A stretch of 64,000 nucleotides of DNA from Candidatus Poribacteria bacterium (GTDB lineage: Bacteria > Poribacteria > WGA-4E > PCPOR2b), in assembly GCA_022822785.1 (NCBI GenBank), contig JAJEAL010000076.1, positions 30,506-94,505 on the forward strand. Reading direction: 5' to 3'. A model generated the notes under the pieces. The model saw only the letters and a list, made by a program, of their open reading frames with translations, did no database searches and was not told where the DNA came from. Both the position numbers and the translations under genes were made by a program. Below, piece by piece: positions 3,358-62,948 of this stretch. Each line of letters starts with the position of its first letter. Position 1 is the stretch's first letter.

Positions 3358-3405
3358 CTAAACTGGACGACTATCAAGTAGTCCTATAAAATAAGGAGAT
3401 ACCTC

Positions 3406-5184: not shown

Positions 5185-5203
5185 CGACTTATAGGAGAAA
5201 AAC

Positions 5204-8673: not shown

Positions 8674-8793
8674 AACATAACCTAAGTTGCTAGTGATTGG
8701 AAATCCATCAGAACCTGTAGGTCGAGATTCACATCTCGACACAAAACCGTCGATTTTGATGAAGATTAATTTATAGTGAATTGTAAACATAAC

Positions 8794-8942
8794 TAGACAC
8801 TTTCGCTCTTCATGTTTGGTAGGCGCTGTTTCCGACTGCGCCTATACGGTGCGGTTTCTAACCGCACCTACCGGGGTAATAGCCCGGATTTTTCCAGCCC
8901 CGGTGGTCGAGGTTTCCTAACCTCGCCGATTGGCAGTGTCTA
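8794..8942. mobile_element. MITE-like intergenic repeat element, copy A (inverted relative to copy B)
   Basis: Ends TAGACACT (8794) and AGTGTCTA (8935) are reverse complements. Internal blocks ggcgcagtYggaaacagcgcctaccaaacatg and ggaaaaatccgggctatYaccccggtaggtgcgg are shared with copies at 11341-11579 and 61802-61905. A flanking AGAATTAAT motif is also shared. Confidence 0.65.
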
Positions 8943-9213
8943 ATTAATTCTAAAATCTACCATAATTGTATCAAATGAGGCCGATGATGAGGGGCTTGAG
9001 GCTCCGCATACATTCGTATTATGATACCGAAAAATCGACAAATTTCAGGCATTCAAATCCTTGATGAAAATTTCACTTTACAATTTCTTAATTTTGAGTT
9101 AAACTTATGATACAAAGGTCAGACCATTAATTATTATGCGAATAAATCGCTCTGTTGTCAAGCAAAATTACAGGTGAGAACCAAGAATAATAGTTCCTAA
9201 CGAGGAGATAGCC

Positions 9214-9849
9214 ATGGGTCAAACCGTCGATATTGGCAAACGTATTGAATTGGTCCCGATGGACCCTCATTTCCACGACATAACGATCGCGCTATACCAA
9301 CAGGGGCCGGATGAGAGCCCCCTGTTCTTAGTGCATACCTACAGCCAGATGGAAGGGGCTCAAGAGCGTATTCAGTTTGCGATCGAAGCGATGACGCGCA
9401 TGGGAAACCTGATTGTGACTGCGAACGGGATGCTCCAGTTCCCCTGTGGATCAGGACATCAACTCGCTTGCAGACGGACTTTTCTAGAGTCATGTAAGCT
9501 CTCCCCGAACGATTCAGCGGAACCTCGTCCCTTACAGATTCTAGACAGAAAGTCAGGCATGACTATCACGGTCGATAGTCTTGGACAAGGGATTTACCAA
9601 GTGAAAGCTGATGGCGAGGGCAGACGTGCCGACAGACGTGTCTCCGCAATTGCTGGCGGTTTACTGAAATTAGGAGAGATGGAAGAGGTGGACGGAACGC
9701 TCGATAAGGTCGCGTTTCCGTGTGGCCATTCCCACGATGCGTTGGTCGGTTTGTTGCTTGTTCGTGCCCCGAATGTACGCGCCATCGTACGGGAGCAAGA
9801 GATGGCAGCCTCGCGTGGCGTCCTCGCAGCACCTAGTCAACAGAATTAG
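9214..9849 (+). CDS. Hypothetical protein with an internal FPCG(S/H)xH duplication; first gene of the corrinoid methyltransferase cluster
   Basis: ORF with a GAGGAGA ribosome-binding site, ending 10 nt before the MtaA-like gene. Two repeated FPCGSGH / FPCGHSH motifs are present. I recognised no known family. Confidence 0.5.
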   Translation: MGQTVDIGKRIELVPMDPHFHDITIALYQQGPDESPLFLVHTYSQMEGAQERIQFAIEAMTRMGNLIVTANGMLQFPCGSGHQLACRRTFLESCKLSPNDSAEPRPLQILDRKSGMTITVDSLGQGIYQVKADGEGRRADRRVSAIAGGLLKLGEMEEVDGTLDKVAFPCGHSHDALVGLLLVRAPNVRAIVREQEMAASRGVLAAPSQQN

Positions 9850-9858
9850 GAGGAAAAT

Positions 9859-10914
9859 ATGGGAACCCAAAAACAAACCGTCGGACCGATGACCGGTAGA
9901 GAACGGGTTTTGGCAGCGTTGAAAAGAGAACCTGTGGACCGAACGCCGATTTGCAATCCAACGTCCGTCGCCACAGTAGAATTGATGGACTTGGTAGATG
10001 CACCATTCCCGGAAGCCAATCGTCAACCTGAGTTGATGGCACGGTTAGCCGCCACCGGGTATACTGAGTTAGGTTTCGATACCATTATGCCTGTTTTCAC
10101 GATTATTCAAGAATCCTCTGCACTCGGATGCAAGATCCAATGGGAGCAGAAGGACAATTGGCCCACGGTTAGAATGCGCGAGCCAATCTGGGAGGATGTC
10201 GATGAAATCAAGATTCCATCAGATTTTCTGACCCATCCGGATACCAAATGCGTACTCGATGCAATTAAAATCCTTAAGAAGGAATACGGGGAGGACGTCG
10301 CTATTATTGGAAAAACGATGGGACCGTGGTCTCAGGCCTATCACTGTTTCGGCGTGGAGCCTTTTTTGCTGCTATCCTTGGATGATCCGGGCACAACGAA
10401 ACTCGCGCTGGATAGGTTGAAGGAAGCCACGATAGAATTTGGCGTCGCACAGATTGAAGCGGGAGCAGATGCACTGACCCTACCCGACCACGCAACGGGC
10501 GATCTGGTCAGTGGTGAATACTATGAGCGTTACCTCCGCGACCTGCACATTGAGTTCGTCGAGCGGATTCCTATCCCGCTGATTCTTCATATTTGTGGGC
10601 GGACAGTGGATAGAATGGAATATATCGCTCAGACAGGAATGGCAGCCTTCCACTACGATTCCAAGAACGAACCCGGTGAATCTATGGAAGTGGTTAAAGA
10701 GCGAATCGCTCTAGTGGGCAACATTAATAACCCTGAGACGCTCTTCTCGAAGGGTCCCGAAGACGTTCGCGGGGAAGTCTACAAGAATCTGGAATCCGGT
10801 GTACATCTTATTGGTCCAGAGTGTGCGATTCCGTTGCAGACCGCTATTGAAAATCTCAAAGAAATTCCCAAAGCGGTGCAGGACTGGCACAAGGAACATA
10901 CGGAATTGAATTAG
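9859..10914 (+). CDS. Uroporphyrinogen decarboxylase (UroD)/MtaA-CmuA family methyltransferase (methylcobamide- or substrate:corrinoid methyltransferase)
   Basis: N-terminal MTGRERVLAALKREPVDRTPICNPTSVATVELM is typical of the MtaA/MtbA/UroD-like family. It has an AGGAGG ribosome-binding site and a length of about 350 aa. Confidence 0.75.
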   Translation: MGTQKQTVGPMTGRERVLAALKREPVDRTPICNPTSVATVELMDLVDAPFPEANRQPELMARLAATGYTELGFDTIMPVFTIIQESSALGCKIQWEQKDNWPTVRMREPIWEDVDEIKIPSDFLTHPDTKCVLDAIKILKKEYGEDVAIIGKTMGPWSQAYHCFGVEPFLLLSLDDPGTTKLALDRLKEATIEFGVAQIEAGADALTLPDHATGDLVSGEYYERYLRDLHIEFVERIPIPLILHICGRTVDRMEYIAQTGMAAFHYDSKNEPGESMEVVKERIALVGNINNPETLFSKGPEDVRGEVYKNLESGVHLIGPECAIPLQTAIENLKEIPKAVQDWHKEHTELN

Positions 10915-10963
10915 GATTAGTACAGAGAAATGTTGCTATAGGGAAAATCTTAATAGAACGTCT

Positions 10964-11323
10964 GTGTTGACAAGGACAAAAGATATGGTTCAGCTAACGA
11001 TGCAAGTTCCCGATGAATTGGCAACACAGATCCAGCCGATTGGCTCTTGGCTTCCAACCGTTATCGAGTTGAGTCTCATCGGATTTAAGACCTTGGCTGC
11101 CGCTACCACAGCCGAGACAATTCAGTTTTTATCAAAAAATCCTGACCCGCAGGAGGTGCTTAACTATCATGTTTCTGAAAGGGCGCAGGAGAGGCTTCAA
11201 CGCTTACTCACACTAAATCAAGCTGGATTGTTATCGGAGATGGAGCAACTTGAACTCGATGAACTGCAACAAATTGAGCATATTATCATCATGCTCAAAG
11301 CACAAGTTACATCACAGCTATAG
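10964..11323 (+). CDS. Hypothetical small protein
   Basis: An ORF only, lying between the MtaA-like gene and the repeat element. No motifs recognised. Confidence 0.3.
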   Translation: MLTRTKDMVQLTMQVPDELATQIQPIGSWLPTVIELSLIGFKTLAAATTAETIQFLSKNPDPQEVLNYHVSERAQERLQRLLTLNQAGLLSEMEQLELDELQQIEHIIIMLKAQVTSQL

Positions 11324-11340
11324 TAAAGTTTAGAATTAAT

Positions 11341-11579
11341 TGGACACTCTGTACCGGGGATGGGAAAATCCGGGCTATCACCCCGGTAGGTGCGGTTTCA
11401 TGAAGATTAATTTATTAATTGGGTAATTTGCTATTGACACCAGCGCGGTTGCAAGCCGCGCCTACCGGGTCTTGGGGAAATATAGAGTTACCCGATTATT
11501 TCCTGAAACTTCATCTAACCGCACCCCATCGGCGCAGTTGGAAACAGCGCCTACCAAACATGGGGAGCGAAAGTGTCTA
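11341..11579. mobile_element. MITE-like intergenic repeat element, copy B (longest copy)
   Basis: Left end AATTAATTGGACACT and right end GAGCGAAAGTGTCTA form terminal inverted repeats. Contains ggcgcagttggaaacagcgcctaccaaacatggggagcgaaagtgtcta and ggaaaatccgggctatcaccccggtaggtgcgg, shared with copies A and D. Confidence 0.65.
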
Positions 11580-11621
11580 TCTGTTTTTAGAATCCACTAT
11601 AAGTTCAAAGAGAAAAAAACT

Positions 11622-12392
11622 ATGGCAGAAATTACCGACATTCAAAATGAAATTATTGTAGACGAGATTGAGGAGTTCATTGAGCGCCCTGACGAACGGG
11701 AGCGCGCTATTAATACATTTGCCCAAACCACCCCTGAGATGCAGGACATCGCCGCAGCGCTCATTGACGGAGACAACGATGGTGTGGATGAGATGACCAA
11801 AGCCGCTTTGGACGCGGGCACCGAAGCACTGGAAATCATGGATGACGGCCTAATCGCAGGAATGGGGGTCGTCGGGATTAAGTTCCGAGAGAACTTTATC
11901 TTCGTCCCGGAAGTCCTCGCTTGCGCCCGAGCAATGAAAGCCGGCATGGCGTATATTGAACCGATTCTATCCGCCTCCGGCATCGATCCCATCGGGACTG
12001 TAATCATGGGAACGGTGAAAGGCGATCTCCACGACATCGGCAAGAACCTGTGCATCATGATGCTGCGGGGCGCAGGATTCGTTGTGCACGACTTGGGTGT
12101 GGACACCTCGGACGATGAGTTCATCGAAGCAGTGGAGGAGCACGAGGCACCCATACTCGGAATGTCAGCGTTGCTGACCACCACGATGCCAAACATGGGC
12201 AAGACAATTGAAGCCTTCATCGATGAAGATCTCCGGGAAGATGTGAAGATTATGGTGGGCGGTGCCCCGGTGACCCAAGAGTTCGCCGATGATATGGGTG
12301 CGGATGGCTACGGCAAAGACGCCCTTGAATGCGTGGCACTAGCAAAGAAGTTCCTCGAAGAAGAAGAGGACGAAGACTGGGCAGCAGATTAG
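11622..12392 (+). CDS. Corrinoid (cobalamin-binding) protein, MtaC/MtbC/MetH-B12-domain-like
   Basis: B12-binding Rossmann domain with the DxHxxG signature DLHDIGKNLCIMMLRGAGF and GMSALLTTTMPNM, preceded by a helical cap domain. The start is set at the ATG at 11622 (MAEITD), because the longer ORF-track frames begin inside the repeat. Confidence 0.8.
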   Translation: MAEITDIQNEIIVDEIEEFIERPDERERAINTFAQTTPEMQDIAAALIDGDNDGVDEMTKAALDAGTEALEIMDDGLIAGMGVVGIKFRENFIFVPEVLACARAMKAGMAYIEPILSASGIDPIGTVIMGTVKGDLHDIGKNLCIMMLRGAGFVVHDLGVDTSDDEFIEAVEEHEAPILGMSALLTTTMPNMGKTIEAFIDEDLREDVKIMVGGAPVTQEFADDMGADGYGKDALECVALAKKFLEEEEDEDWAAD

Positions 12393-12468
12393 AGGCTTCT
12401 CTCAAGCCGATTGGGTGTTAAGCTGGCTCGGTACAAAAAATTAAGGCAAACCTATTGACAACTTAAAC

Positions 12469-14424
12469 ATGAACAAAGAAGAATACCAGAAACGTTTAGA
12501 CAAAATAACAGAGCTGTTTTCAAGCATGGTAACTCATGCTGACCAACAATCGATGCATCGGTGCCCTTATAAAAACCGCTTCGATCAATGCACCGCTAAG
12601 TTCGGGTGTCGAAACCAGCGTAGGCCGCCTAGCGAAGGTTTGGTTGATAGGGAACGCAGATCTGCGTTCCCTACTAGCGTCCGCGGCACTCCAGAGGAAG
12701 GATTACTTTTGTGTGGTGGGGACGATAAGATTGACTATCGGACCGCGTGGGAAACTGAAGTTGCTAACGGCGCTTTCCTCGAAAATGAAGAAAACTACGG
12801 ATCGGGAACGGTAACACACGACAGCAAAAAGCGGCCTCTCGCAGCCGGAAAGACCATTTTCGATTACGCTGATGAACTCGCAGTTCAGGTGCCGACCTCC
12901 TGCTTCCGGACCGGGCAATGCCACGAATGTATTGTGGAAATTAAAGAGGGAATGGAGGCGCTGCGAACTCGGAACGAAGCAGAATCGTTTTTGCGAGAGA
13001 ACTATCGGCTCGCCTGCCAAGCAGTGGTTAAAGCCCCCGATATCGACATAGTGTTTTCGCCAATACGGCGCACCCCCAAGATCCTTACCCGTACGCACGA
13101 AAAACCCCTTCAAATTGACCCGTTAGTGACGCGCCGTGAAGACACGGTTTACTACGACGATGAGGCAGTTGACAGATACCGCGGTCATATCTACGGCTTG
13201 GCAATTGACCTCGGCACCACAACAGTCGTCATCGATTTAGTCGATCTGGAAACCGGTGAAAGTGTCCATGTCAGCTCCTTTGAAAACCCACAACGGTTCG
13301 GCGGCAGTGATATCATGCATCGCATTTCGTATGATGGTGAGTTCGGTGGCGAATTGCGCTGGTCAGTCATCAACGCGCTCAACCACGAAATTCGGGAAAT
13401 GGCTCAACAGTTAGGGTTCGTGCGTCAAGAAATTTACGAGATTGTTGTCGTGGGCAACTCGACCATGCGAGACATTTTCTTTAAGCTGGATGTACAAAGT
13501 ATCGGTCAAAAACCCTATCAATCGGTAATCGAGGGTCAATATCGTGCCGGTGAGCGCGAAACCACTTCCCTTATTGAAAAGACACGGCGACTTGGGATTC
13601 GAGCTAACCCCAAAGCGTGGGTGTATGGGCTGCCATTAATCGGCAGCCATGTTGGTGCCGACGTTGCAGCGGACCTAGTAGCACTCGACATGGCATCTCA
13701 AAAAGAGGTCGTCATGCTAGTAGATGTCGGCACGAATACTGAAGTGGTGGTTGGACATCCGGGGCGGCTGATTGCTGCGTCCTGCCCAGCAGGACCCGCT
13801 TTTGAGGGCGGCGGCATTAAGTACGGGATGCCCGGCTACGACGAAGCGATTGAGTCCGTCCGTTGGGTAGATGGTCAGATTGAATATAGTACGATCGGTG
13901 GCGTTGAACCTAAAGGCATCTGTGGCTCCGGTTTAATCGACCTATTGGCGGAGCTTCGTCGGAACGGACAGATGACTGAAATGGGGGTCTTCGGGAACAG
14001 AAAGACACGTGAGATACCCATTATCCCGGAATACGGCATCACTTTCTCCCGCGAAGATGCTAGCAATCTAGCGCAAGCTAAGGCTGCTAACTACTGCGGT
14101 CAATTCATCGTTATGCGAAGGTTCGGGATCAATCCGGCGGATATAAGTCGGCTCTATCTAGCGGGTGGTTTCGCCAATTATGTGGATGTGCGTAACGCAA
14201 TTGATATCGGGTTTTTGGCACCGGTAGATGAAAGCCGTATCTCCAAGATTGGCAACGCTGCGGTACAGGGCGCAAAGGAAGTACTCCTCTCACGAAAGAA
14301 ACGTGAGGATATTGAGCGTTTGGTCAAAGGGATAGAACATGTAGAATTGGAGACCACCTCCGATTTCTTTGAGGTGTTCGTCGAAGGGTGCCAATTTAAG
14401 CCGATGCCGACAGAGTTTGTGTGA
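12469..14424 (+). CDS. RamA/RACo-like reductive activator of corrinoid proteins (2Fe-2S ferredoxin plus ASKHA ATPase, DUF4445-like)
   Basis: N-terminal plant-type ferredoxin Cys pattern (SCFRTGQCHECIV...LACQ), followed by a large ASKHA-fold region (DLGTTTVV, VDVGTNTEVVVG). The length is about 650 aa. It is adjacent to a corrinoid protein. Confidence 0.7.
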   Translation: MNKEEYQKRLDKITELFSSMVTHADQQSMHRCPYKNRFDQCTAKFGCRNQRRPPSEGLVDRERRSAFPTSVRGTPEEGLLLCGGDDKIDYRTAWETEVANGAFLENEENYGSGTVTHDSKKRPLAAGKTIFDYADELAVQVPTSCFRTGQCHECIVEIKEGMEALRTRNEAESFLRENYRLACQAVVKAPDIDIVFSPIRRTPKILTRTHEKPLQIDPLVTRREDTVYYDDEAVDRYRGHIYGLAIDLGTTTVVIDLVDLETGESVHVSSFENPQRFGGSDIMHRISYDGEFGGELRWSVINALNHEIREMAQQLGFVRQEIYEIVVVGNSTMRDIFFKLDVQSIGQKPYQSVIEGQYRAGERETTSLIEKTRRLGIRANPKAWVYGLPLIGSHVGADVAADLVALDMASQKEVVMLVDVGTNTEVVVGHPGRLIAASCPAGPAFEGGGIKYGMPGYDEAIESVRWVDGQIEYSTIGGVEPKGICGSGLIDLLAELRRNGQMTEMGVFGNRKTREIPIIPEYGITFSREDASNLAQAKAANYCGQFIVMRRFGINPADISRLYLAGGFANYVDVRNAIDIGFLAPVDESRISKIGNAAVQGAKEVLLSRKKREDIERLVKGIEHVELETTSDFFEVFVEGCQFKPMPTEFV

Positions 14425-14478
14425 GGGTGGGAAACCTTTCGCGCTAAAATAGAGACCGAGCTCAAAATTTCAACGATT

Positions 14479-16137
14479 TTGACTAAGGATTTTTCAACCC
14501 ACGCCCCGTCAAGCGAGCCCACAATTATGAATACCTCCCCTACCGAAGCGAATCGTAACTTTAGTGCTTGGCAGAAGCCTACACTGCGCTATCTGCTTCA
14601 GGAGACAGATACATTCGTCACCTGTGTGGAATTGGTAACCTCGCGCGGAACCATCACCGAGCGCGATGGTCGTCGGATGTTAGCACTCGCGCGAAAACTC
14701 ACCGACAATCCGGGTATACACGCTCTAAGCATTACCGACAATCCGGGCGGTAACGCGATGATGGGCGCCGATACTTTGGGGACCGATTTGATCTCCCGCG
14801 GTCAAGAGGTGATTATTCACCTCTCTTGCAAAGATTGGAACCGCAATGCCCTACAGAGTCGAGGGTGGCAGCTCGCCAGCGAAGGGTTTAACAATATCTT
14901 AGCACTATCGGGCGATTATCCAACCGATGGGTATCACGGTCAAGCGAGCCCTGTATTTGACACGGACTCCGTAGGTTTGCTGAAGATGTTCACCGATATG
15001 AATGCTGGTATGAAGGTGGGCACTGGAAAAAGGTCGCAAGTGCTGCAGCGCACCAATTTTTTATTAGGTGCGGTGGTCAACAACCACAAACGTTACGAAC
15101 GCGAGGTTATGCCACAGTATTTCAAGCTAAAAAAGAAGATTGAGAACGGTGCTGCGTTCATCATCAACCAGATTGGATACGACTCACGCAAACAGGATGA
15201 ACTGTTGAAGTATATGGCAGCTCATAAGATGCGCGTACCGGTGATTGGCAACGTCTACGTCCTCAGTCGTGTTGCGGCCCGTTTTTTTAACAAAGGTAAC
15301 ATCCCCGGTGTAATCGTAACCGATGCACTACTTAACCTAATTGAAAAACAGGCAAAATCAAAGGACAAGGGCAAAGCTTTCTTCTTGGAGTTGGCCGCCA
15401 AGCAGTGCGCCATCGCCAAGGGGTTGGGCTATCGCGGCGTATATCTAGGGGGGCATCTACGTTACACAGATTTTGAGCGAATCCTGAAGATGGCAAATCG
15501 CTTTGGAGAGGACGATTGGAAGGATTTTGCCACAGAGATTTGTTTTCACTATCCCGATGAATTTTACTTTTTTGAACCCGACCCGGAGACGGGGCTCAGT
15601 TCAACTGAGATTAGTCGCGAGTATCTCTTTTCAAAACGGCCTGACGCCTTGAAAGCCGCCAAACAGACAATCCCCTTGAGCTATAAAATCAATCGCACGG
15701 TGCACGACAAAGTTTTTGAAAAGGGGAGCTGGGGCTTTACAATCGGCAAGCGGATTTCTCAGGCAGTCGATGGAACAAGTAAGACGGTAAAAAGAGTTAT
15801 ACACGGTGCCGAACAAGCAGTTAAGGTCCCCGCCTTTGATTGCCGTGACTGCGGCGATTGTTCGCTGCCGGATATTGCGTACCTATGTCCCGAATCCCAG
15901 TGCGTAAAAAACCAGCGTAATGGACCGTGTGGTGGGACCCGTCAGGGCAAATGCGAAATCGGTGAGAAGGACTGCATCTGGGCACGGGCTTATGACCGTC
16001 TCAAAGCCTACGGCGAAGAAGAAAAGATGTTAGACGGTCCCGCAATTTTCAAGGACGGTGCCCTCAAGGGCACGAGTGCGTGGAGCAATACTTTTCTAGA
16101 GCGGGATCATCACGCCCACAAAAAATCTAATAGCTAA
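14479..16137 (+). CDS. metF: Methylenetetrahydrofolate reductase (MetF-like) with a C-terminal Cys-rich MTHFR_C/MetV-like domain
   Basis: MTHFR motifs ALSITDNPGG, IIHLSCKD and NILALSGDYP. The C-terminal roughly 110 aa carry a dense Cys cluster (CRDCGDCSLPDIAYLCPESQCVKNQRNGPCGG...KCEIGEKDC). The start is uncertain: TTG at 14479 or ATG at 14527. Confidence 0.7.
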   Translation: MTKDFSTHAPSSEPTIMNTSPTEANRNFSAWQKPTLRYLLQETDTFVTCVELVTSRGTITERDGRRMLALARKLTDNPGIHALSITDNPGGNAMMGADTLGTDLISRGQEVIIHLSCKDWNRNALQSRGWQLASEGFNNILALSGDYPTDGYHGQASPVFDTDSVGLLKMFTDMNAGMKVGTGKRSQVLQRTNFLLGAVVNNHKRYEREVMPQYFKLKKKIENGAAFIINQIGYDSRKQDELLKYMAAHKMRVPVIGNVYVLSRVAARFFNKGNIPGVIVTDALLNLIEKQAKSKDKGKAFFLELAAKQCAIAKGLGYRGVYLGGHLRYTDFERILKMANRFGEDDWKDFATEICFHYPDEFYFFEPDPETGLSSTEISREYLFSKRPDALKAAKQTIPLSYKINRTVHDKVFEKGSWGFTIGKRISQAVDGTSKTVKRVIHGAEQAVKVPAFDCRDCGDCSLPDIAYLCPESQCVKNQRNGPCGGTRQGKCEIGEKDCIWARAYDRLKAYGEEEKMLDGPAIFKDGALKGTSAWSNTFLERDHHAHKKSNS

Positions 16138-16209
16138 TGACGCGGACGGGGGCCGCTTTTAATCGGTGCAACCGGTGCCAACCGTGTGCAGCACTACGAG
16201 GAGTTGACG

Positions 16210-17244
16210 ATGAAACTAAACGGTCAAGATTTTATCATTATCGGCGAGAATGTCCATACCACTCGTGTAGTAAGACGGAAGGGAAACCTAGTTACGGACA
16301 ACCCTGCTGGACTCGAGTCCGTCCGTTATTTGGGTACAAACAAAAAGCGCCGCTATCTTGTTATCCCCGAATCTATCAAAAAATCCCAAGAGTATGAGGA
16401 GGGGCGTGTCAAGCACGTCATCATCGCGGTTCAGGCGGCAATGGCGGGCCACGAACCCTATGCCAGCGAAGGGCTGGAATATATACGCAGAATCGTCCAA
16501 CGGCAGGTAGATGCTAACACCGACTTCCTCGATGTCAACGTGGATGAAATTTCGTGGCGGCTTGAAGAGCAGAAGGAAGCCATGCGCTGGTTGGTGCAAG
16601 CCATCCAACAGATGTCTGATACACCTTTGTCCATCGATTCCTCGAACAGCGAAATCATCACGGCGGGGCTTGAGGTGTATGATAACAGCGTCGGGCGGGC
16701 ACTACTCAACTCCGCTTCACTGGAACGCCTTGAAGCGTTAGATCTCGCCAAACAGTACAACACAAAGGTAATGGTAACCGCCGCCAGCGAATCTGGGATG
16801 CCACAGAACCCCGAAGAACGGCTCGCTAACGCCTCTCGCATGGTAGATGCAGCAAACGACAAAGGGATTGCTACTGAAGATATCTTTATTGACCCATTGT
16901 TCTTTCCGATTGGAGTGGACACTGAGAACGGCAACCACGCTTTTGAAGCTATCCGGATGCTCCGTGAGAAGTACGGTTCCGACATCCATATCAGTGGTGG
17001 ATTCAGCAATGTCTCTTTCCAGATGCCCTCCCGTCGTCTCATCAATGACGTTTTCATGGTGCTTGCAATCGAATCTGGTGCGGATAGCGGGATTATTGAC
17101 CCTGTGACCAATAAGCCGCAAAGCGCCCTCGCTATTGACCGCGCATCGCAAGTCTATCAATTGACCGAAGATATGCTGTTAGGCAAGGACCGCTTCTGTA
17201 GAACGTTCCTCCGTGCTTACCGCAAAGGCGAATTGGAGGGTTGA
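16210..17244 (+). CDS. Pterin-binding methyltetrahydrofolate:corrinoid methyltransferase (AcsE/MtrH/MetH-pterin-domain-like)
   Basis: FIIIGENVHTTR resembles the IGERIN motif of pterin-binding (DHPS-like) barrels. The length is about 345 aa. A GAGGAG ribosome-binding site precedes the ATG at 16210; a GTG alternative lies at 16186. Confidence 0.65.
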   Translation: MKLNGQDFIIIGENVHTTRVVRRKGNLVTDNPAGLESVRYLGTNKKRRYLVIPESIKKSQEYEEGRVKHVIIAVQAAMAGHEPYASEGLEYIRRIVQRQVDANTDFLDVNVDEISWRLEEQKEAMRWLVQAIQQMSDTPLSIDSSNSEIITAGLEVYDNSVGRALLNSASLERLEALDLAKQYNTKVMVTAASESGMPQNPEERLANASRMVDAANDKGIATEDIFIDPLFFPIGVDTENGNHAFEAIRMLREKYGSDIHISGGFSNVSFQMPSRRLINDVFMVLAIESGADSGIIDPVTNKPQSALAIDRASQVYQLTEDMLLGKDRFCRTFLRAYRKGELEG

Positions 17245-17247
17245 ACC

Positions 17248-17535
17248 GTGGCGATGTATCAAATCTTATACTGGAAGGATATTCCAGCGCAGGTGAGAGT
17301 TTATGAAGGTAGAAGGCGAATCACGCAGCAAATGCCCAAGCGTTTTCAGATCGAAATAGATCGCGTAGCGATGGAAACGGGTTTAGCCGGAACGGATGAT
17401 TATCTAGACCAGTGGCAGTGGACAGAAAAACAGGAACGTCCCGGCGAGCCGGAGGAAATTCTGAAGGCACTTGTTCAGGAACTTGAGGCAGAACATAACA
17501 ATAAGGCTCGGAAACGGAAGCAAAAGGGGCCGTAA
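17248..17535 (+). CDS. Hypothetical small protein with a basic C-terminal tail, translationally coupled to the upstream methyltransferase
   Basis: GGAGGG ribosome-binding site, with the start 3 nt after the upstream stop. No motif recognised. Confidence 0.4.
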   Translation: MAMYQILYWKDIPAQVRVYEGRRRITQQMPKRFQIEIDRVAMETGLAGTDDYLDQWQWTEKQERPGEPEEILKALVQELEAEHNNKARKRKQKGP

Positions 17536-17596
17536 AAGCTTGCCTGTACCTGCTAAAAAAGTAATACATAGATTAGAAGCGTAGAAAGGATTCCTT

Positions 17597-18658
17597 ATGC
17601 CTACATTCCAACCTGAAACCCTACGGCGAATCGGCTACGACCTCTTTGAAGCCGCCGGTTGCAGAGCAGAGGACACCCGATCGGTTGTTGACCACCTGAT
17701 CGAATCGAATCTCTTTGGACATGATTCTCACGGCGCCATCCGTTTCTATGAGTACGCCCGCGCTATACGAGATGGTAGATTCCAACCCACCGCAAAACCT
17801 GAAATTGTGAGCGACAATCCCTGTGCCGCAGTGGTCGATGGACACAGCGCCCTTGGACAGGTCGGGGCAACCTTTGCGATGAACCTTGCTATCGAAAAAG
17901 CACGGCAATACGGGACAGGCACTGTCGCACTGCGAAATACGAGTCATGTCGGACGAGCGGGTGCCTATCCTTTGATGGCAGCGCGAAACCAGATGCTAGG
18001 GATTGCTTTCGTCAACGCCGGTCATCTCGGCTATCAGATTGCTCCCTTCGGTGGTCTCGACGGTCGGCTCAGCACGAACCCGCTTGCATTCTCTGCCCCA
18101 CGCCGGAACGATGACCCAATCCTAGTGGATATGACCACCTCCGTAGTCGCGGAAGGCAAGATTCGCGTTGCAATCAATCAAGGTAAGGAGGTGCCGGAAG
18201 GTTGGATTATCGATTCACAAGGCAACCCGACCACCGACCCAAACGATTTCAAAGACGATCCACCCGGAGCGATTCTTCCGATGGGTGGCGTTGTGGCACA
18301 CAAAGGTTACGGACTCAGCTTTGTGGTGGAGCTCTTGGGTGGAGCTCTTAGCGGTCAGGGGTGTGCTGCCGGTGAGACCACAATGGTCAGCAACGGTGTT
18401 CTCTTCACCGTCTACAATATCAGTCACTTCACCGACCTCAACGACTATTACGATGAGGTAGAGGACCTAATTCAGCACGTCAAATCGAGTCGGCTTGCGC
18501 CGGGATTTCGCGAGATTCTGAGTCCCGGTGAACCCGAATTTCGCGCCGCCGCGCAGAAGCAGATCGAGGGCATTGAAATCGATGAGACAACGTGGACAGC
18601 TATTTGTGAGGAGGCGTCTGCTTTCGGTCTCGATCCAGAACAGTGGAAGACAGCGTAG
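17597..18658 (+). CDS. Ldh_2 family (malate/L-lactate/sulfolactate dehydrogenase type 2) oxidoreductase
   Basis: Signature LFGHDSHG and an overall length of about 350 aa. Confidence 0.7.
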   Translation: MPTFQPETLRRIGYDLFEAAGCRAEDTRSVVDHLIESNLFGHDSHGAIRFYEYARAIRDGRFQPTAKPEIVSDNPCAAVVDGHSALGQVGATFAMNLAIEKARQYGTGTVALRNTSHVGRAGAYPLMAARNQMLGIAFVNAGHLGYQIAPFGGLDGRLSTNPLAFSAPRRNDDPILVDMTTSVVAEGKIRVAINQGKEVPEGWIIDSQGNPTTDPNDFKDDPPGAILPMGGVVAHKGYGLSFVVELLGGALSGQGCAAGETTMVSNGVLFTVYNISHFTDLNDYYDEVEDLIQHVKSSRLAPGFREILSPGEPEFRAAAQKQIEGIEIDETTWTAICEEASAFGLDPEQWKTA

Positions 18659-18748
18659 AAATTCTCCCGGCCTGATCCGATGGATTGGGCCAGAAAGGAG
18701 TGAACTGAGTCAACATGAAATTTTTTTTGAAATATCAGAGGAGTTTAG

Positions 18749-19747
18749 ATGAAGGCATTTTTGGATAGATTGAAAGAGCCCACCCCAATGATTTATGACG
18801 GTGGGTTTGGCTCGCAGCTATTTAGTGTGGGCATTACATTGACAAACAGCACACTCGCAAACGAACTGCATTCGGAAACCGTCATCGACATCCATTCGGC
18901 TTACGTTGAAGCGGGCGCTGACGCGATCGGCACGAACACATTTGTCGCTTCGCCTCTGCATCTCGAAATGGCAGGGAAAGATGCCGCCGAAGCCGAGAAA
19001 CTGACAAGGCAGGCTGTGGCACACGCGAAGGCAGCCATTGAGAGAAATAGCAGGGACGTGTACATCGCCGGTACAGTTGGTCCTTCGCCCGGCGCGATCG
19101 AAGCCGATAGTGGTGGCGTTGATTTTGGGATTGCAAATACAGCGGCTAGAGATGCACATAAGCGAATAATATACGCCCTTGCAGAGGAAGGGGTGGACTT
19201 TTTCTGTATTGAAACCATGTTCTCCGCAAAGGAGGCTGCAATTGCCGTTGACGTTGCCAGAAACACGGGGCTGCCCATCGCCGTGAATATGACCTATAAA
19301 TATACCAGAGATCGGCGGACGAAAGAGGTGATATACAAAACGGATTGGGGACATTCTGCTGCATCCCTCATCGAGATTTTAGCCGGAGGTGAATTCTCCA
19401 ACGGAGATAATCTACTCGATCACATTCAAATCTTAGGGGTAAACTGCGGCGCAGAATCAAGACGTGAAGAACATACAGGCATGCCCTATGCGATAAGCGG
19501 AATCCAGCAGCTGCACGAAGCGATGGAAGAGAAAGGCATCAATTCAAAACGGTTGATGGCTTATCCAAATGCGGGCATGGCACGCTTAGACGAAAATCAA
19601 CAGACATATTGGCCCCAAGCACCGGAGGAGATGTCACCTTACTTACCGGAGCTGCTCAAGGAGGGGGCGTATCTGATTGGCGGCTGTTGCGGCACAAGCC
19701 CCGCACACGTCAAGGCGTTTCGGGAAACCTTATCTCAGTTAAAATAA
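18749..19747 (+). CDS. Homocysteine S-methyltransferase domain protein (MetH Hcy-binding-module-like)
   Basis: N-terminal MIYDGGFGSQL and a C-terminal zinc-site motif GGCCGTSPAHV, with about 330 aa in between. These are the characteristic features of the Pfam S-methyl_trans family. Confidence 0.75.
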   Translation: MKAFLDRLKEPTPMIYDGGFGSQLFSVGITLTNSTLANELHSETVIDIHSAYVEAGADAIGTNTFVASPLHLEMAGKDAAEAEKLTRQAVAHAKAAIERNSRDVYIAGTVGPSPGAIEADSGGVDFGIANTAARDAHKRIIYALAEEGVDFFCIETMFSAKEAAIAVDVARNTGLPIAVNMTYKYTRDRRTKEVIYKTDWGHSAASLIEILAGGEFSNGDNLLDHIQILGVNCGAESRREEHTGMPYAISGIQQLHEAMEEKGINSKRLMAYPNAGMARLDENQQTYWPQAPEEMSPYLPELLKEGAYLIGGCCGTSPAHVKAFRETLSQLK

Positions 19748-19834: not shown

Positions 19835-21042
19835 TCAGTTACCCCGCCCTAAAGGACGAGGCTTGTTATAATTGCCTCCGCCACGGGGCTTACAAGGTTC
19901 CGCGCTTCTTTCTCTTTCAAGAGTTTCGGGGGTGTCTACTACCACCACACCTCCACGCAAGGCTACAGCAGCCTTTTTGATATTGATTGCAGCGTTATGG
20001 TCTCTGTCGATTACCAACCCACAATGCGGGCAGTCATGGACACGGACAGACAAGAGTTTGGGAACTATCGCCTCGCACCCTGAACATTTCTGGCTTGTGT
20101 AGTGGGGCTTAACCGTCGTCAACTGCTTACCGGCACTTTCAGCCTTGCTTTGCAGTTTCAATCGAAAACTCCCCCACCCCGCATCAGATATACTCTTGGC
20201 AAGGTAATGGTTTTTCAACATATTGGTGATGGTCAGATTCTCAACGGCAACCTCATCGCAACCAAGAAGCATCCGATGCACCGTCTTAAACTGAAAATCC
20301 TTACGCTGATTCGCTATACGTTCGTGGGTACGAGCGACAATCTCGCGCTGTTTCGCTCGACGTTTACTCCCTTTTTTGTGTCGAGAGAGTATCCGTTGAT
20401 GTTTGCCAAGCGTCTTTTCAGATTTACGATAGTGGCGTGGATTCGGAATCCGTTGACCATCGGAATCGACGACAAACGCATTAAGCCCAACATCCACGCC
20501 GATGGTCGTTTCAACAGGGACTTTCACGGGATTGGGGACTTCAACGCAGATAGTTACATACCAGCCCGACGCTTTACGGCGGATGGTCAGATTCTTGATT
20601 TTACCATCGGGCAGCGGTCGGTGATACCGAATCTTGAGGGGGCCGACTTTGGGGACAACCACGCGGGCAAACTTGCGACGGATATGCCGTATTAGATTCA
20701 CAGACAAGTGGCTAAAGGTCATTGACCGATACCGCCCTTCGCTTTTGAAGCGCGGGAAGCCCGGTTCAGCACCCATTTTGACACGACCAAAGAATGCTCG
20801 GTATGCTTTATCCAAACGGCGTAAGCAGTCTTGCAGCACATCAGCGTGGAGACCGGCAAACGCTTGGGATTCTTGTTTGAGGTCAGGTAACGCGTTCCCT
20901 TGTGTCGCCCACTTGACCGATTCACCGGTGGATTGGTAGACATCTTTACGTCATGCAAGTGCTTGGTTGTAAAGCGTCCGGAGCAACGCAAACCAAGTGG
21001 TAAAGGTCTTTCGTTGTTTGGCAGTCGGATACGCCCGATATT
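19835..21042 (-). pseudogene. tnpB: IS605/IS1341-family tnpB (RNA-guided-nuclease-like transposase), frameshifted near 20945
   Basis: The C-terminal part (19835-20839) has the OrfB zinc-ribbon CSGCEAIVPKLLSVRVHDCPHCG and RuvC-like motifs. The N-terminus (MKGRKLPSMKTTYEYRAYPTAKQRKTF...LYNQALA), recovered by hand translation of 21042-20947, is in another frame. No tnpA is adjacent. Confidence 0.75.
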
Positions 21043-21242
21043 CATAAGTAGTTTTCATTGAGGGTAGCTTTCTACCTTTCATTTCCTATGCACTAGGAGG
21101 TGGGAGACCCTACCAAGCGGTAGGGGTGCATTCTCCCACGAAAGCCACCAAGATTATACCATTTTTAGCGACAGTTTACAACGAAAAGGAGCGCAGTGGA
21201 CACCCCGCTCTAAAGAACGGGGTGTCCACTGCGAAGATTTTG

Positions 21243-27361: not shown

Positions 27362-27384
27362 ATTGATAGGGGAGGATGAAACGA

Positions 27385-61664: not shown

Positions 61665-61801
61665 CGGAATACTCGCTACCCATAACAACCGGCATAAGAA
61701 CGCGCAATGGATTGCGCTACTACAAACAGCGGGGCAAGATGCCCGCCTACTGGGTGCAGGCGTGGCCACACCTAAAACTATGGTGAATTTTAGAATTACT
61801 T

Positions 61802-62911: not shown

Positions 62912-62948
62912 GGGAAAGGTTAATCAAATTAAAGAGAGGCAGATTCAA

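What the first reader, a model, noticed from the sequence alone, without database searches (positions are those of the whole stretch)
9214..19747. Multi-component corrinoid methyl-transfer cluster resembling a disassembled methionine synthase or demethylase
Nine co-oriented genes make up the cluster. They encode an unknown 211-aa protein, a UroD/MtaA-family methyltransferase, a B12-binding corrinoid protein, a RamA-like ATP-dependent reductive activase, an MTHFR with a Cys-rich C-terminal domain, a pterin-binding methyl-THF:corrinoid methyltransferase, a small basic protein, an Ldh_2-family dehydrogenase and a stand-alone homocysteine S-methyltransferase domain. Together they supply every module of cobalamin-dependent methionine synthase as separate polypeptides: the Hcy-binding barrel, the pterin barrel and the B12 domain. 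Reactivation would come from RamA instead of the AdoMet domain of MetH. A second zinc thiol/O-methyltransferase (MtaA-like) is also present. The cluster could run in the demethylase direction (methoxy or methylthio substrate to corrinoid to THF to methylene-THF) or in the methionine-synthase direction. A frameshifted tnpB insertion lies immediately downstream.
Basis: partly seen in the sequence, partly recalled or inferred. Interest (0 to 1): 0.65.

Follow-up and report, generated by a model that had tools for sequence, protein, structure and literature searches.

The report
Sponge-symbiont cobalamin methyl-transfer operon
This is a real, widely conserved vitamin-B12-dependent operon in a sponge-symbiont bacterium (Poribacteria) that probably moves methyl groups between an unidentified, probably sulfur-containing compound, folate and homocysteine; its most constant part is a methanogen-type methyltransferase always paired with a 211-residue protein of unknown fold.

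Summary
The window is from a Candidatus Poribacteria metagenome scaffold.

Comparative genomics shifts the emphasis. The constant unit is the unknown 211-aa protein (U211) plus the MtaA-like zinc methyltransferase. They are adjacent in 75 of 80 species genomes. Around this pair sit a corrinoid protein, a RACo-type activase, a pterin methyltransferase, PF13769, an optional MetF-MetV-type MTHFR, a 2-hydroxyacid dehydrogenase (Ldh_2, or the unrelated 2-Hacid_dh) and often the homocysteine methyltransferase. A divergent GntR/FCD regulator has a conserved TGGTCAGACCA operator just after the promoter.

The pterin, B12 and Hcy modules plus the activase form a split MetH, which is already known from Phaeobacter. 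A corrinoid protein shared between methionine synthesis and demethylation is known from Ruegeria (MtgBCDE). What is new is the substrate module. It is an MtaA-type enzyme with His-Cys-Cys zinc ligands, 71-98% identical across phyla, with U211 as partner. U211 is an internally duplicated protein with no fold match.

Substrate and direction remain unproven. I favour an S-methylated carboxylic acid as methyl donor.

The downstream tnpB carries an in-frame stop, not a frameshift.

Verdict: a new variant of a known kind.

The parts
7939..8673 (-). Divergent GntR-family regulator with an FCD ligand domain; the probable repressor of the operon
   Evidence: Pfam GntR 1.3e-17 and FCD 1e-27. The 244-aa gene call is from the source scaffold. 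The gene sits divergently next to the cluster in 26 of 80 genome loci and in distant lineages L092, L094, L097 and L098.
9077..9125 (+). Conserved promoter-like site (TTTACA, 17 nt, TAAACT at 9077-9105) followed by the palindromic operator GGTCAGACC (9117-9125; extended AAGGTCAGACCATT)
   Evidence: Promoter scan. The block CTTTACAAT...GTTAAACTTAT...TGGTC(A/T)GACCA is conserved upstream of the 211-aa gene in 11 of the 23 upstream regions examined; all 11 have an adjacent GntR. L031 and L047, which have only the U211/URO-D pair and no adjacent GntR, keep the promoter but lack the operator. That this matches the FadR-subfamily TGGTNNNACCA operator type is my own knowledge.
9214..9849 (+). U211: 211-aa protein of unknown function, the obligate neighbour of the MtaA-like methyltransferase. 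It is an internal tandem duplication, each half carrying an F-P-C-x3-H motif, and has a conserved disordered C-terminal tail ...RGVLxAPSQQ
9859..10914 (+). MtaA/CmuA-family (URO-D superfamily) zinc methyltransferase with His-Cys-Cys ligands
   Evidence: Pfam URO-D 7.7e-66. TIGR01463 scores 242 bits (cut-off 235) and PRK06252 scores 262 (cut-off 244). 191 bits to Methanosarcina mazei MtaA (4AY7), with LHICG and GPECA aligned to the MtaA zinc motifs. H244, C246 and C322 are invariant, and identity is 71-83% even to Acidobacteriota and Bryobacterales copies.
10985..11323 (+). Small inserted ORF (112 aa, no family). In some relatives it is followed by an HNH-motif ORF. Not part of the pathway
   Evidence: No Pfam hit. 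Present in only 6 of 80 loci, always between the methyltransferase and corrinoid genes; the partner ORF f49 carries an HNH-like motif.
11314..11605 (.). REP/MITE-like intergenic repeat, an inverted copy of the one at 8768-8969. Together they bracket U211, URO-D and the small ORF
   Evidence: Inverted repeats I1-I3, 83-93% complementary. Further copies lie at 57343-57471 and 61773-61930 and in other Poribacteria loci at unrelated positions.
11622..12392 (+). Corrinoid (cobalamin-binding) protein, 256 aa, with a His-on DxHxxG motif (GDLHDIGKN)
   Evidence: Pfam B12-binding_2 and B12-binding. Best NCBIfam hits are MtgC-type and pyl_corrinoid models, all below cut-off. Sequence. 79-99% identical in 33 loci.
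12469..14424 (+). RACo-type ATP-dependent reductive activase of corrinoid proteins, with a 2Fe-2S domain and a fused N-terminal Cys-rich module of about 100 aa
   Evidence: Pfam Fer2, Raco_middle and RACo_C_ter. The RamA model TIGR04270 scores only 125 of 500 bits. The N-terminal 100 aa are 49-59% identical to a separate 76-110-aa ORF that lies between the corrinoid and activase genes in L007, L097 and L098.
14527..16137 (+). MetF-like methylenetetrahydrofolate reductase fused to a MetV-like Cys-rich C-terminal domain
   Evidence: Pfam MTHFR 2.4e-13 and DUF5981 2.4e-26. Present in 19 of 80 loci and in L097. Absent from the otherwise identical clusters L029, L043, L045, L046, L092, L094 and L098.
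16210..17244 (+). Pterin-binding methyl-THF:corrinoid methyltransferase (AcsE/MeTr- and MetH-pterin-module-like)
   Evidence: Pfam Pterin_bind 2.1e-25. PRK07535 scores 210 bits (cut-off 259) and metH 108 bits over model positions 372-611.
17248..17535 (+). PF13769 ('Virulence_fact') protein, 95 aa, function unknown. It starts 4 nt after the pterin methyltransferase gene
17597..18658 (+). Ldh_2-family NAD(P)-dependent 2-hydroxy/2-oxo-acid dehydrogenase
   Evidence: Pfam 9.6e-110. Closest solved structures are E. coli YbiC (2G8Y), a P. horikoshii malate dehydrogenase (1V9N) and sulfolactate dehydrogenase ComC (2X06). In L092, L094 and L097 an unrelated 2-Hacid_dh enzyme follows the pterin methyltransferase instead: directly in L092/L094, and after PF13769 and an SDR gene in L097.
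18749..19747 (+). Stand-alone homocysteine S-methyltransferase domain protein with zinc cysteines (GVNCG, GGCCG)
   Evidence: Pfam S-methyl_trans 3e-50. The best NCBIfam hits are the YitJ N-terminal half, MmuM, BHMT and MetH, all below cut-off. Sequence. It lies next to the cluster in 12 of 80 loci, in two different gene orders and at least three phyla.
19835..21049 (-). tnpB (IS605/OrfB, TnpB) pseudogene that marks the 3' end of the cluster
   Evidence: Pfam OrfB_IS605 and Cas12f1-like_TNB. Translating a single frame gives a typical TnpB N-terminus, then a stop after about 32 codons, then the 334-aa ORF. Related intact TnpBs are 371-403 aa long and align in that same frame.

Best explanation
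This is a GntR/FCD-repressed, cobalamin-dependent methyl-transfer operon of a Poribacteria sponge symbiont.

Proposed mechanism:
1. A dedicated corrinoid protein (His-on, DxHxxG) is kept in the Co(I) state by a RACo-type ATP-dependent activase.
2. An MtaA-type zinc methyltransferase with His-Cys-Cys ligands works with its obligate 211-aa partner U211. Together they take a methyl group from the sulfur (possibly selenium) of a small carboxylic acid and load it on the corrinoid.
3. The methyl group then leaves by one of two exits. One is to homocysteine through the PF02574 protein, giving methionine. The other is to tetrahydrofolate through the pterin-binding methyltransferase, after which the MetF-MetV-type reductase converts methyl-THF to methylene-THF.
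4. The same pterin, corrinoid, Hcy and activase proteins also make up a split MetH that can make methionine from methyl-THF.
5. Ldh_2 acts on the 2-hydroxy/2-oxo group of the substrate or of its demethylated product.

What is shown and what is inferred:
- Shown: the families, the metal and cofactor motifs, the conserved synteny, and the promoter/operator.
- Inferred: protein-protein partnerships, the direction of transfer through the MtaA-like enzyme, and the substrate class.
- Speculation: candidate substrates. These are MMPA, 4-methylthio-2-hydroxy- or 2-oxobutyrate, DMSHB and other sulfonium or thioether acids, and methylselenium compounds.
For: Families and motifs.

The U211 plus URO-D pair is invariant. 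It is adjacent in 75 of 80 species genomes and also in lineages where U211 is only 35-53% identical.

Two compact gene sets exist that each contain a full transfer chain:
- HcyMT-PF13769-U211-UROD-CP-RACo in Opitutales, Latescibacterota and unclassified MAGs, with no pterin methyltransferase within 10 kb.
- GntR<-U211-UROD-CP-RACo-Pter(-PF13769)(-2-Hacid_dh), with no Hcy methyltransferase.
The module common to both is U211/URO-D. The first set has a complete donor-to-acceptor chain only if URO-D (or, less plausibly, the PF02574 protein) is the donor-side enzyme.

His-Cys-Cys zinc ligands are invariant. In the URO-D superfamily this pattern marks S/Se-methyltransferases, whereas O-demethylases replace the cysteines (PMC10418091). 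MtpA is a precedent for an MtaA homologue that demethylates a carboxylated thioether (bioRxiv 10.1101/548461).

A 2-hydroxyacid dehydrogenase recurs through non-homologous enzymes, Ldh_2 or 2-Hacid_dh. With the FCD-type regulator, its conserved operator and an SBF-family transporter gene downstream in the same gene run in L097, this points to a carboxylic-acid substrate.

The operon logic matches Ruegeria MtgBCDE plus MetF2 and RamA, where one corrinoid protein and one bidirectional pterin methyltransferase serve both demethylation and methionine synthesis (PMC12478193). It also matches the split MetH of Phaeobacter (PMC5764234).

Formate-THF ligase lies beside the regulator in L004-L006.
Against: - No biochemical or genetic data exist for any of these proteins.
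- Moving a methyl group from a thioether to THF is strongly uphill. It is the reverse of the methionine-synthase reaction, roughly +30 kJ/mol by my own knowledge. A thioether donor therefore fits the homocysteine exit but not the THF/MTHFR exit. A sulfonium or halide donor, or the opposite direction of transfer, would fit THF better.
- MMPA demethylation by MtpA is itself unfavourable (10.1101/548461).
- Most Poribacteria carry U211/URO-D alone, away from the other genes, so a partnership with this corrinoid protein is not proven for them.
- The Acidobacteriota U211 copy has lost all four Cys/His motif residues, so these cannot be universally catalytic.
- The 2-hydroxyacid dehydrogenase could instead be a hydroxypyruvate/glyoxylate reductase for C1 assimilation, which would say nothing about the substrate.
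- The PF02574 protein scores higher against the YitJ, MmuM and BHMT models than against MetH, so it might not use the corrinoid protein at all.
Confidence: 0.5

Rival explanations
1. The hardware is the same but the MtaA-like enzyme works in the opposite direction. Methyl-THF, made by the MetF-MetV reductase, methylates the corrinoid protein through the pterin methyltransferase. The methyl group then goes to two thiol acceptors: homocysteine through PF02574, and a second thiol (a mercapto-2-oxo/2-hydroxy acid, 3-mercaptopropionate, sulfide or selenide) through URO-D/U211. The system would then be a methionine-synthase-like S-methylating machine.
For: Methyl-THF to thiol is the thermodynamically favourable direction (my own knowledge of MetH and Mtr). 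MtaA, the closest solved relative, is a methylcobalamin:thiol methyltransferase. The U211-UROD-CP-RACo-Pter clusters would form a complete methyl-THF-to-thiol chain. MTHFR normally runs towards methyl-THF. The MtpA and Mlp2 assays ran best in the thiol- or selenide-methylating direction (10.1101/548461; PMC10418091).
Against: The HcyMT-PF13769-U211-UROD-CP-RACo operons would contain two acceptor enzymes and no donor enzyme within 10 kb. An FCD-GntR repressor and the operon layout look like catabolic demethylase systems (PMC12478193). No biosynthetic need for such a product is evident.
Confidence: 0.22
2. A cmu-like methyl halide pathway. URO-D/U211 would dehalogenate CH3Cl, CH3Br or CH3I onto the corrinoid protein. 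The pterin methyltransferase and MTHFR would then feed the methyl group into THF-linked C1 oxidation, with methionine synthesis as a side exit.
For: The protein scores above the cut-off of the shared MtaA/CmuA model TIGR01463. Halide-to-THF transfer is exergonic. CmuA, CmuB and MetF2 provide the same logic (cmu pathway as summarised in PMC13222342; the role of MetF2 is my own knowledge). Methyl halides and organohalogens are abundant in sponges and seawater (my own knowledge). Formate-THF ligase lies nearby in L004-L006.
Against: A carboxylate-type FCD regulator, the recurrent 2-hydroxyacid dehydrogenase and the SBF-family transporter have no role with a gaseous halomethane. CmuA is a methyltransferase-corrinoid fusion; here the two are separate proteins. 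No direct comparison with CmuA was possible: a plasmid search returned no CmuA-like hit.
Confidence: 0.1
3. A classical O-demethylase for methoxylated aromatic compounds, with URO-D as MT I, the pterin protein as MT II, plus a corrinoid protein and an activase.
For: The four-component set and gene order resemble the Odm, Vdm, Mtv and Mto systems (PMC13222342). Aplysina-type sponges are rich in O-methylated bromotyrosine alkaloids (my own knowledge).
Against: The zinc ligands are His-Cys-Cys, whereas O-demethylases substitute the cysteines (PMC10418091). The protein scores 191 bits to MtaA, and the only other PDB hits at E<=1e-5 are uroporphyrinogen decarboxylases. It passes the MtaA/CmuA model cut-off.
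Confidence: 0.06
4. Simply a split cobalamin-dependent methionine synthase. U211 and URO-D would be accessory proteins (for example for cofactor loading or repair, as DUF1638 may be in Phaeobacter) or unrelated passengers.
For: All MetH modules and a RamA-like activase are present. The Phaeobacter split MetH needs an extra protein of unknown role, DUF1638 (PMC5764234).
Against: The Hcy methyltransferase is absent from many otherwise complete clusters. U211/URO-D is the most conserved and constant element. URO-D keeps an intact catalytic zinc site. Housekeeping methionine synthesis does not need an inducible GntR operon with a dehydrogenase.
Confidence: 0.05

Closest known systems
MtgBCDE dual glycine-betaine demethylase / methionine synthase of Ruegeria pomeroyi, with MetF2, RamA and DUF1638 (Mausz et al. 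2025, PMC12478193)
   Same: Both have separate corrinoid, pterin-methyltransferase and Hcy-methyltransferase proteins, a RamA-like activase and a dedicated MetF paralogue. Both have one corrinoid protein proposed to serve both a substrate demethylase and methionine synthesis. Both occur in aerobic marine bacteria.
   Different: The substrate-specific methyltransferase there is an MttB-family protein (PF06253) acting on a quaternary amine. Here it is an MtaA-type URO-D zinc enzyme plus U211. No PF06253 or DUF1638 hit was obtained for any window ORF of 150 aa or more that was scanned. PF13769, Ldh_2 and a GntR/FCD regulator are additional here.
Three-part split MetH with a RamA-like (DUF4445) activase in Phaeobacter inhibens (Price et al. 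2018, PMC5764234)
   Same: PF02574, PF00809 and PF02607+PF02310 are carried on separate proteins. Reactivation is by a ferredoxin-DUF4445 protein instead of the MetH AdoMet domain.
   Different: In Phaeobacter the genes are scattered and DUF1638 is required. There is no MtaA-like enzyme, U211, PF13769, MTHFR or dehydrogenase in an operon.
Type 1 mlp gene clusters (MtaA-like proteins + corrinoid protein + Ram/RACE) of anaerobes (Kountz & Balskus 2023, PMC10418091), and the methanogen enzymes MtaA, MtsA and MtpA
   Same: An MtaA-like URO-D enzyme with His-Cys-Cys zinc ligands sits next to a corrinoid protein and a bacterial-type activase. Both are predicted to act in methyl-sulfur or methyl-selenium metabolism, possibly feeding methionine.
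   Different: Type 1 clusters carry two or three distinct Mlps, lack a THF methyltransferase and are reported only from obligate anaerobes. This cluster has one Mlp-like enzyme paired with U211, has pterin and Hcy methyltransferases, and occurs in sponge symbionts whose close relatives carry a predicted Fe(II)/2-oxoglutarate dioxygenase (PhyH family) gene inside the operon.
cmu chloromethane pathway (CmuA, CmuB, MetF2) and the corrinoid O-demethylase and Cdm systems (PMC13222342)
   Same: A URO-D-superfamily MT I, a corrinoid carrier, a pterin-type MT II and an activase, with methyl-THF oxidised by a dedicated MetF.
   Different: CmuA is a fusion protein. The O-demethylase and Cdm MT I enzymes belong to a different URO-D clade and lack the Cys-Cys ligands or the zinc altogether. 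None has a U211-like partner or an Hcy methyltransferase.

Membership tests
MtaA/CmuA-family methyltransferase (TIGR01463; URO-D superfamily) | Score above the curated model cut-off | tested here: met
   TIGR01463 scores 242.4 bits against a cut-off of 235.4. PRK06252 scores 262.4 against 244. The equivalog models MtaA_Meth (237 of 400) and MtbA (198 of 600) are not reached.
MtaA/CmuA-family methyltransferase (TIGR01463; URO-D superfamily) | His-x-Cys ... Cys zinc-binding residues | tested here: met
   LHICG and GPECA align with the MtaA (4AY7) motifs LHICG and APGCG. H244, C246 and C322 are invariant in six copies from distinct lineages.
MtaA/CmuA-family methyltransferase (TIGR01463; URO-D superfamily) | Methyl transfer between a corrinoid and a thiol or halide substrate | not testable with these tools
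   Needs an enzyme assay.
Split cobalamin-dependent methionine synthase (Phaeobacter type) | PF02574, PF00809 and PF02607+PF02310 on separate polypeptides | tested here: met
   The zinc cysteines of the Hcy module and the DxHxxG motif of the B12 module are present.
Split cobalamin-dependent methionine synthase (Phaeobacter type) | RamA-like (Fer2 + DUF4445/RACo) reactivation protein instead of the PF02965 domain | tested here: met
   Fer2, Raco_middle and RACo_C_ter are present; no cluster protein hits PF02965.
Split cobalamin-dependent methionine synthase (Phaeobacter type) | Associated DUF1638 (PF07796) protein | tested here: not met
   No scanned window ORF hits PF07796. It could be encoded elsewhere in the genome.
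Split cobalamin-dependent methionine synthase (Phaeobacter type) | The genes are required for methionine prototrophy | not testable with these tools
   The organism is uncultured. Whether the genome has metH or metE could not be checked from a 64-kb window.
MtgBCDE glycine betaine demethylase / methionine synthase | MttB-family (PF06253) substrate methyltransferase MtgB | tested here: not met
   No PF06253 hit among the scanned window ORFs of 150 aa or more.
MtgBCDE glycine betaine demethylase / methionine synthase | Corrinoid protein of the MtgC type | tested here: inconclusive
   The best NCBIfam hit is corrin_MtgC_2, at 201 bits against a cut-off of 370.
Type 1 mlp gene cluster | [quoted passage not shown] | tested here: not met
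   There is a single URO-D gene and a pterin methyltransferase is present. Clade assignment to Mlp1-3 was not tested because no reference sequences were available.
RamA (TIGR04270, methanogen reductive activase) | Score above the model cut-off; two [4Fe-4S] motifs | tested here: not met
   125 bits against a cut-off of 500. The protein has a 2Fe-2S Fer2 domain and the RACo domains instead.
Corrinoid O-demethylase MT I (OdmB, VdmB, MtvB, MtoB, CdmB clade) | Membership of that URO-D clade; zinc cysteines replaced or absent | tested here: not met
   His-Cys-Cys is retained. The only PDB hits at E<=1e-5 are MtaA and uroporphyrinogen decarboxylases. The ligand rule is taken from PMC10418091.

The most novel reading that the evidence does not exclude
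The U211 plus MtaA-like pair is a previously unrecognised two-subunit methyltransferase. It lets aerobic sponge symbionts, and some free-living Acidobacteriota, Verrucomicrobiota and Latescibacterota, strip the methyl group from an S-methylated organic acid of host or algal origin, for example MMPA, 4-methylthio-2-hydroxybutyrate or its sulfonium DMSHB. The methyl group passes by way of cobalamin directly to homocysteine and folate. This would be a new cobalamin-dependent route in marine organosulfur and methionine cycling, spread by horizontal transfer among symbionts. U211 and PF13769 would be new protein folds with roles in corrinoid methyl transfer.
Probability: 0.3. Interest if true: 0.8.

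Novelty: new variant of a known kind. Interest (0 to 1): 0.6.

Why it matters
- Soluble MtaA-type methyltransferases are thought of as methanogen and anaerobe enzymes. Here one is among the most conserved proteins of an operon shared by several phyla of sponge symbionts. It is 71-98% identical across them and is wired to folate and homocysteine.
- If the substrate is a methylated sulfur compound, this would be an unrecognised cobalamin-dependent link between DMSP-related organosulfur compounds, methionine supply and C1 metabolism in sponge holobionts. It would also add to the reasons why these symbionts need B12.
- The work attaches a testable context to two orphan protein families, U211 and PF13769, and to a Cys-rich activase module.
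- It gives a defined regulator and operator pair that could be used to find the inducer.

Tried and rejected
- The afdb50 library was not available.
- Sequence search of PF13769 against the PDB found nothing meaningful. A literature search for PF13769 found nothing.
- A tblastn of the URO-D protein against plasmids, meant to reach cmuA on Methylobacterium plasmids, returned only hemE-like hits of 23-27% identity. No CmuA comparison was therefore possible.
- An Rfam scan of the cluster and its leader found no riboswitch. The only hit was a sub-threshold atpB RNA match inside the tnpB region.
- The generic promoter/terminator scan did not exceed shuffled expectation for terminators, so it says little about co-transcription.
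- A TGATACA/TGTATCA motif I noticed upstream of U211 is not conserved in other loci and was dropped.
- The remote U211-like proteins P0237 and P0220 are not next to URO-D genes and gave no functional hint. P0170 lay on a contig too short to use.
- The window's own PhyH-like ORFs (24097-24969 and 62715-63752) are not orthologues of the PhyH gene found inside the operon in relatives.
- A literature search for Poribacteria with corrinoid methyltransferases found no description of this cluster.
- I considered an O-demethylase and a plain split MetH as the main reading and rejected both, for the reasons given under the rival explanations.

Full report
**1. What is in the window**

ORF listing and profile searches confirm nine co-oriented genes between 9214 and 19747:
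- an unknown 211-aa protein (U211, no Pfam or NCBIfam family)
- a URO-D-superfamily protein that passes the curated cut-offs of the MtaA/CmuA model TIGR01463 and of PRK06252
- a corrinoid protein (B12-binding_2 plus B12-binding)
- a RACo-type activase (Fer2, Raco_middle, RACo_C_ter)
- an MTHFR fused to the MetV-like Cys-rich domain DUF5981
- a pterin-binding methyltransferase
- a 95-aa PF13769 protein
- an Ldh_2 dehydrogenase
- a stand-alone homocysteine S-methyltransferase domain

Cofactor motifs are intact:
- The corrinoid protein has DxHxxG.
- The Hcy methyltransferase has GVNCG and GGCCG.
- The URO-D protein aligns over its whole length with Methanosarcina mazei MtaA (191 bits). The MtaA zinc motifs are reproduced as LHICG and GPECA.

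A GntR/FCD regulator is transcribed divergently upstream. A tnpB lies downstream. Translating one frame shows it is broken by an in-frame stop about 32 codons in, not by a frameshift.

Between the methyltransferase and the corrinoid gene is a 708-bp gap. It holds a small ORF with no family and a REP/MITE-like repeat. An inverted copy of that repeat lies upstream of U211. The repeat family is dispersed in the window and in related genomes, so I treat it as intergenic clutter. The rest of the window holds nothing related to the cluster.

**2. Source and conservation**

The window is identical to a 92-kb metagenome scaffold. U211 has 1120 homologues, all unannotated, and the named ones are Candidatus Poribacteria. 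A scan of one genome per species found 333 encoding stretches. The best 80 are mostly Poribacteria, with some Latescibacterota, Opitutales, Moanabacter and unclassified MAGs. The window organism is therefore a poribacterial sponge symbiont; its U211 is 95% identical to the best match.

tblastn mapping of the window proteins onto these 80 loci and ORF family clustering gave these counts:

| Gene | Loci (of 80) |
|---|---|
| U211 | 80 |
| URO-D within 2 kb downstream of U211 | 75 |
| URO-D about 8 kb downstream | 2 |
| Corrinoid protein | 33 |
| Activase | 31 |
| GntR | 26 |
| PF13769 | 20 |
| MTHFR | 19 |
| Pterin methyltransferase | 17 |
| Hcy methyltransferase | 12 |
| Ldh_2 | 10 |

Several counts are lower bounds, because the flanks stop at 10 kb.

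Four layouts occur:
- **A (the window's clade):** GntR<-U211-UROD-CP-RACo-[PhyH]-MTHFR-Pter-PF13769-Ldh_2-HcyMT. Restriction-modification or toxin-antitoxin-like insertions are common.
- **B:** the same without MTHFR.
- **C (Opitutales, Latescibacterota and others):** HcyMT-PF13769-U211-UROD-CP-RACo as a compact six-gene unit.
- **D (most Poribacteria):** U211-UROD alone among unrelated genes.

The window lacks a 265-aa PhyH-family dioxygenase gene that 20 relatives carry between the activase and MTHFR.

**3. Reach of the cluster beyond sponge symbionts**

A profile search of 1.84 billion representatives found only 269 U211-family clusters. Members only 35-53% identical to the window protein still sit in the same cluster:
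- GntR, several IS elements, then U211-UROD-CP-RACo-Pter-2-Hacid_dh, with a MetE-like gene convergent on the other strand (Pfam)
- GntR<-U211-UROD-CP-RACo-Pter-2-Hacid_dh

Starting instead from PF13769 homologues, I reached two further MAGs.
- **Acidobacteriota MAG:** GntR<-U211-UROD-CP-small ORF-RACo-MTHFR/DUF5981-Pter-PF13769. This is followed by an SDR, two 2-Hacid_dh genes, a GlpX-type FBPase gene and an SBF-family transporter.
- **Bryobacterales MAG:** GntR<-U211-UROD-CP-small ORF-RACo-Pter-PF13769.

Across all of these the URO-D protein stays 71-83% identical to the window copy and its zinc ligands are invariant, while U211 diverges much more.

The small ORF between the corrinoid and activase genes in those lineages is homologous to the Cys-rich first 100 residues of the window's activase. 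The module is therefore fused here.

**4. Regulation**

Upstream of U211 lies a conserved block: CTTTACAAT, 17 nt, GTTAAACTTAT, then the palindrome TGGTC(A/T)GACCA. It is found in 11 of the 23 upstream regions examined, all of which have an adjacent GntR. These include distant lineages. In the window the hexamers are at 9077-9105 and the palindrome core at 9117-9125.

The two layout-D loci L031 and L047 keep the promoter-like block but lack the palindrome. Layout C has neither. This fits a FadR-type GntR repressor site that overlaps the start of the operon (the operator type is my own knowledge). It also supports U211 as the first gene.

Gene spacing is 4-100 nt, apart from the insertion. No riboswitch was detected.

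**5. The two orphan proteins**

C78, H82, C170 and H174 are nearly invariant, but all four are lost together in the Acidobacteriota copy. This suggests one joint, dispensable metal site rather than a catalytic residue set. The conserved, disordered C-terminal tail (RGVLxAPSQQ) is kept in all URO-D-linked members.

PF13769 also gives a confident model (pLDDT 90) with no fold relative. It is never fused to another domain in the 120 homologues listed.

**6. Comparison with the literature**

- **Price et al. 2018 (PMC5764234):** the Phaeobacter inhibens methionine synthase is split into PF02574, PF00809 and B12-binding proteins. It depends on a RamA-like Fer2-DUF4445 protein and a DUF1638 protein.
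- **Mausz et al. 2025 (PMC12478193):** in Ruegeria pomeroyi the corrinoid protein MtgC and the pterin methyltransferase MtgD are needed both for methionine synthesis and for glycine betaine demethylation by an MttB-family MtgB. MetF2 is strongly induced.
- **Kountz and Balskus 2023 (PMC10418091):** they describe clusters of MtaA-like proteins with a corrinoid protein and an activase in anaerobes. They state that His-Cys-Cys zinc ligation marks S/Se-methyltransferases, whereas O-demethylases replace the cysteines.
- **Fu et al. [quoted passage not shown]
- **Bernhardt et al. 2026 (PMC13222342):** the O-demethylase and chloromethane MT I enzymes fall in other clades of the URO-D superfamily.

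None of the searches found a description of this cluster, of U211, or of MtaA-like enzymes in Poribacteria.

**7. Interpretation**

The pterin, corrinoid, Hcy and activase genes form a split MetH of a known kind. A hub in which one corrinoid protein serves several methyltransferases also has precedent.

The distinctive part is the substrate module, U211 plus an MtaA-type His-Cys-Cys enzyme. It is the only element present in every layout. Layout C contains a complete donor-carrier-acceptor chain only if this module is the donor-side enzyme and homocysteine is the acceptor. The Pter-containing layouts without HcyMT give a complete chain with THF.

Three features point to a carboxylic acid with a 2-hydroxy or 2-oxo function as substrate or product:
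- the FCD-type regulator
- a 2-hydroxyacid dehydrogenase that recurs through non-homologous enzymes (Ldh_2 or 2-Hacid_dh)
- the SBF-family transporter in one lineage

I therefore favour a methyl-sulfur (or methyl-selenium) acid demethylase that feeds methionine and the folate pool.

The main weakness is thermodynamic. Thioether-to-THF transfer is uphill by about the free energy of the methionine-synthase reaction (my own knowledge). So either homocysteine is the real outlet, or the donor is a sulfonium or a halide, or the MtaA-like enzyme runs in the thiol-methylating direction (rival 1). The dehydrogenase might also be a hydroxypyruvate/glyoxylate reductase for C1 assimilation. These points cannot be settled by computation.

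**8. Verdict**

The system is a new variant of the corrinoid-dependent multi-component methyltransferases. It has two orphan protein families and an unusually conserved methanogen-type methyltransferase in aerobic sponge symbionts. The substrate is unknown.

Noticed in passing
window 8768-8969 and 11314-11605 (also 57343-57471 and 61773-61930): A family of REP/MITE-like intergenic repeats made of nested GC-rich hairpins such as GGTAGGCGC...GCGCCTAC. Two copies in inverted orientation bracket U211, URO-D and the small ORF. Other copies occur at unrelated positions in other Poribacteria loci.
   Followed up: partly
window 10985-11323; relatives L009, L012, L015, L018 and L023: A small ORF of 112-123 aa with no family is inserted between the methyltransferase and corrinoid genes. 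In some relatives it is followed by a 136-aa ORF with an HNH-like motif. It looks like a small mobile or toxin-antitoxin-like cassette sitting inside the operon.
   Followed up: partly
window 14424-14527, compared with L008-L025: Twenty related genomes carry a 265-aa PhyH-family (predicted Fe(II)/2-oxoglutarate dioxygenase) gene between the activase and MTHFR. The window has lost it or never had it. Its role in the pathway is unknown, but it implies that the operon works in the presence of oxygen.
   Followed up: partly
window 9146-9160 (leader of U211): A short motif, (G)CTGTCAAG(C), lies about 55-65 nt upstream of the U211 start codon. It is also seen in the leaders of Latescibacterota, Acidobacteriota and Bryobacterales copies. 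It may be a second protein-binding site or a promoter element. No Rfam family matches.
   Followed up: no
window 12469-12770: The first 100 or so residues of the activase form a Cys-rich module (CPYKNRFDQCTAKFGCRNQRR...LLCGGDDKIDYR). In other lineages it is a separate 76-110-aa gene between the corrinoid and activase genes. This conserved accessory domain has no known function.
   Followed up: partly
window 478-7813: Three co-oriented defence-type genes lie directly upstream of the regulator: a UvrD-like helicase fused to a PD-(D/E)XK nuclease, an N6/N4 DNA methylase, and a ResIII helicase with a TnsA-like endonuclease domain. In close relatives two NAD-dependent epimerase-like genes occupy this position.
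   Followed up: no
window 19835-21049 (- strand): The tnpB has an in-frame stop after about 32 codons. A sub-threshold Rfam match (atpB RNA, E 0.017) lies inside it at 20347-20475. The expected TnpB guide-RNA region at the 3' end was not examined.
   Followed up: partly
L055 and L081; L038, L074 and L075: In two genomes about 8 kb separates U211 from the URO-D gene. In three genomes no URO-D gene lies within 10 kb. These may be insertions that split the otherwise constant pair.
   Followed up: no
L092 14466-16596 (- strand): In one divergent lineage a 375-aa MetE-like (Meth_synt_2) gene and a bicupin gene lie convergent to the cluster, at the position where other lineages have the PF02574 homocysteine methyltransferase. 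This may be a non-orthologous replacement of the homocysteine-methylating module.
   Followed up: partly
window 26447-28506: An adjacent gene pair encodes a PEP-mutase/isocitrate-lyase-family protein and a citrate synthase, which suggests a methylcitrate-type pathway. It is unrelated to the finding.
   Followed up: no
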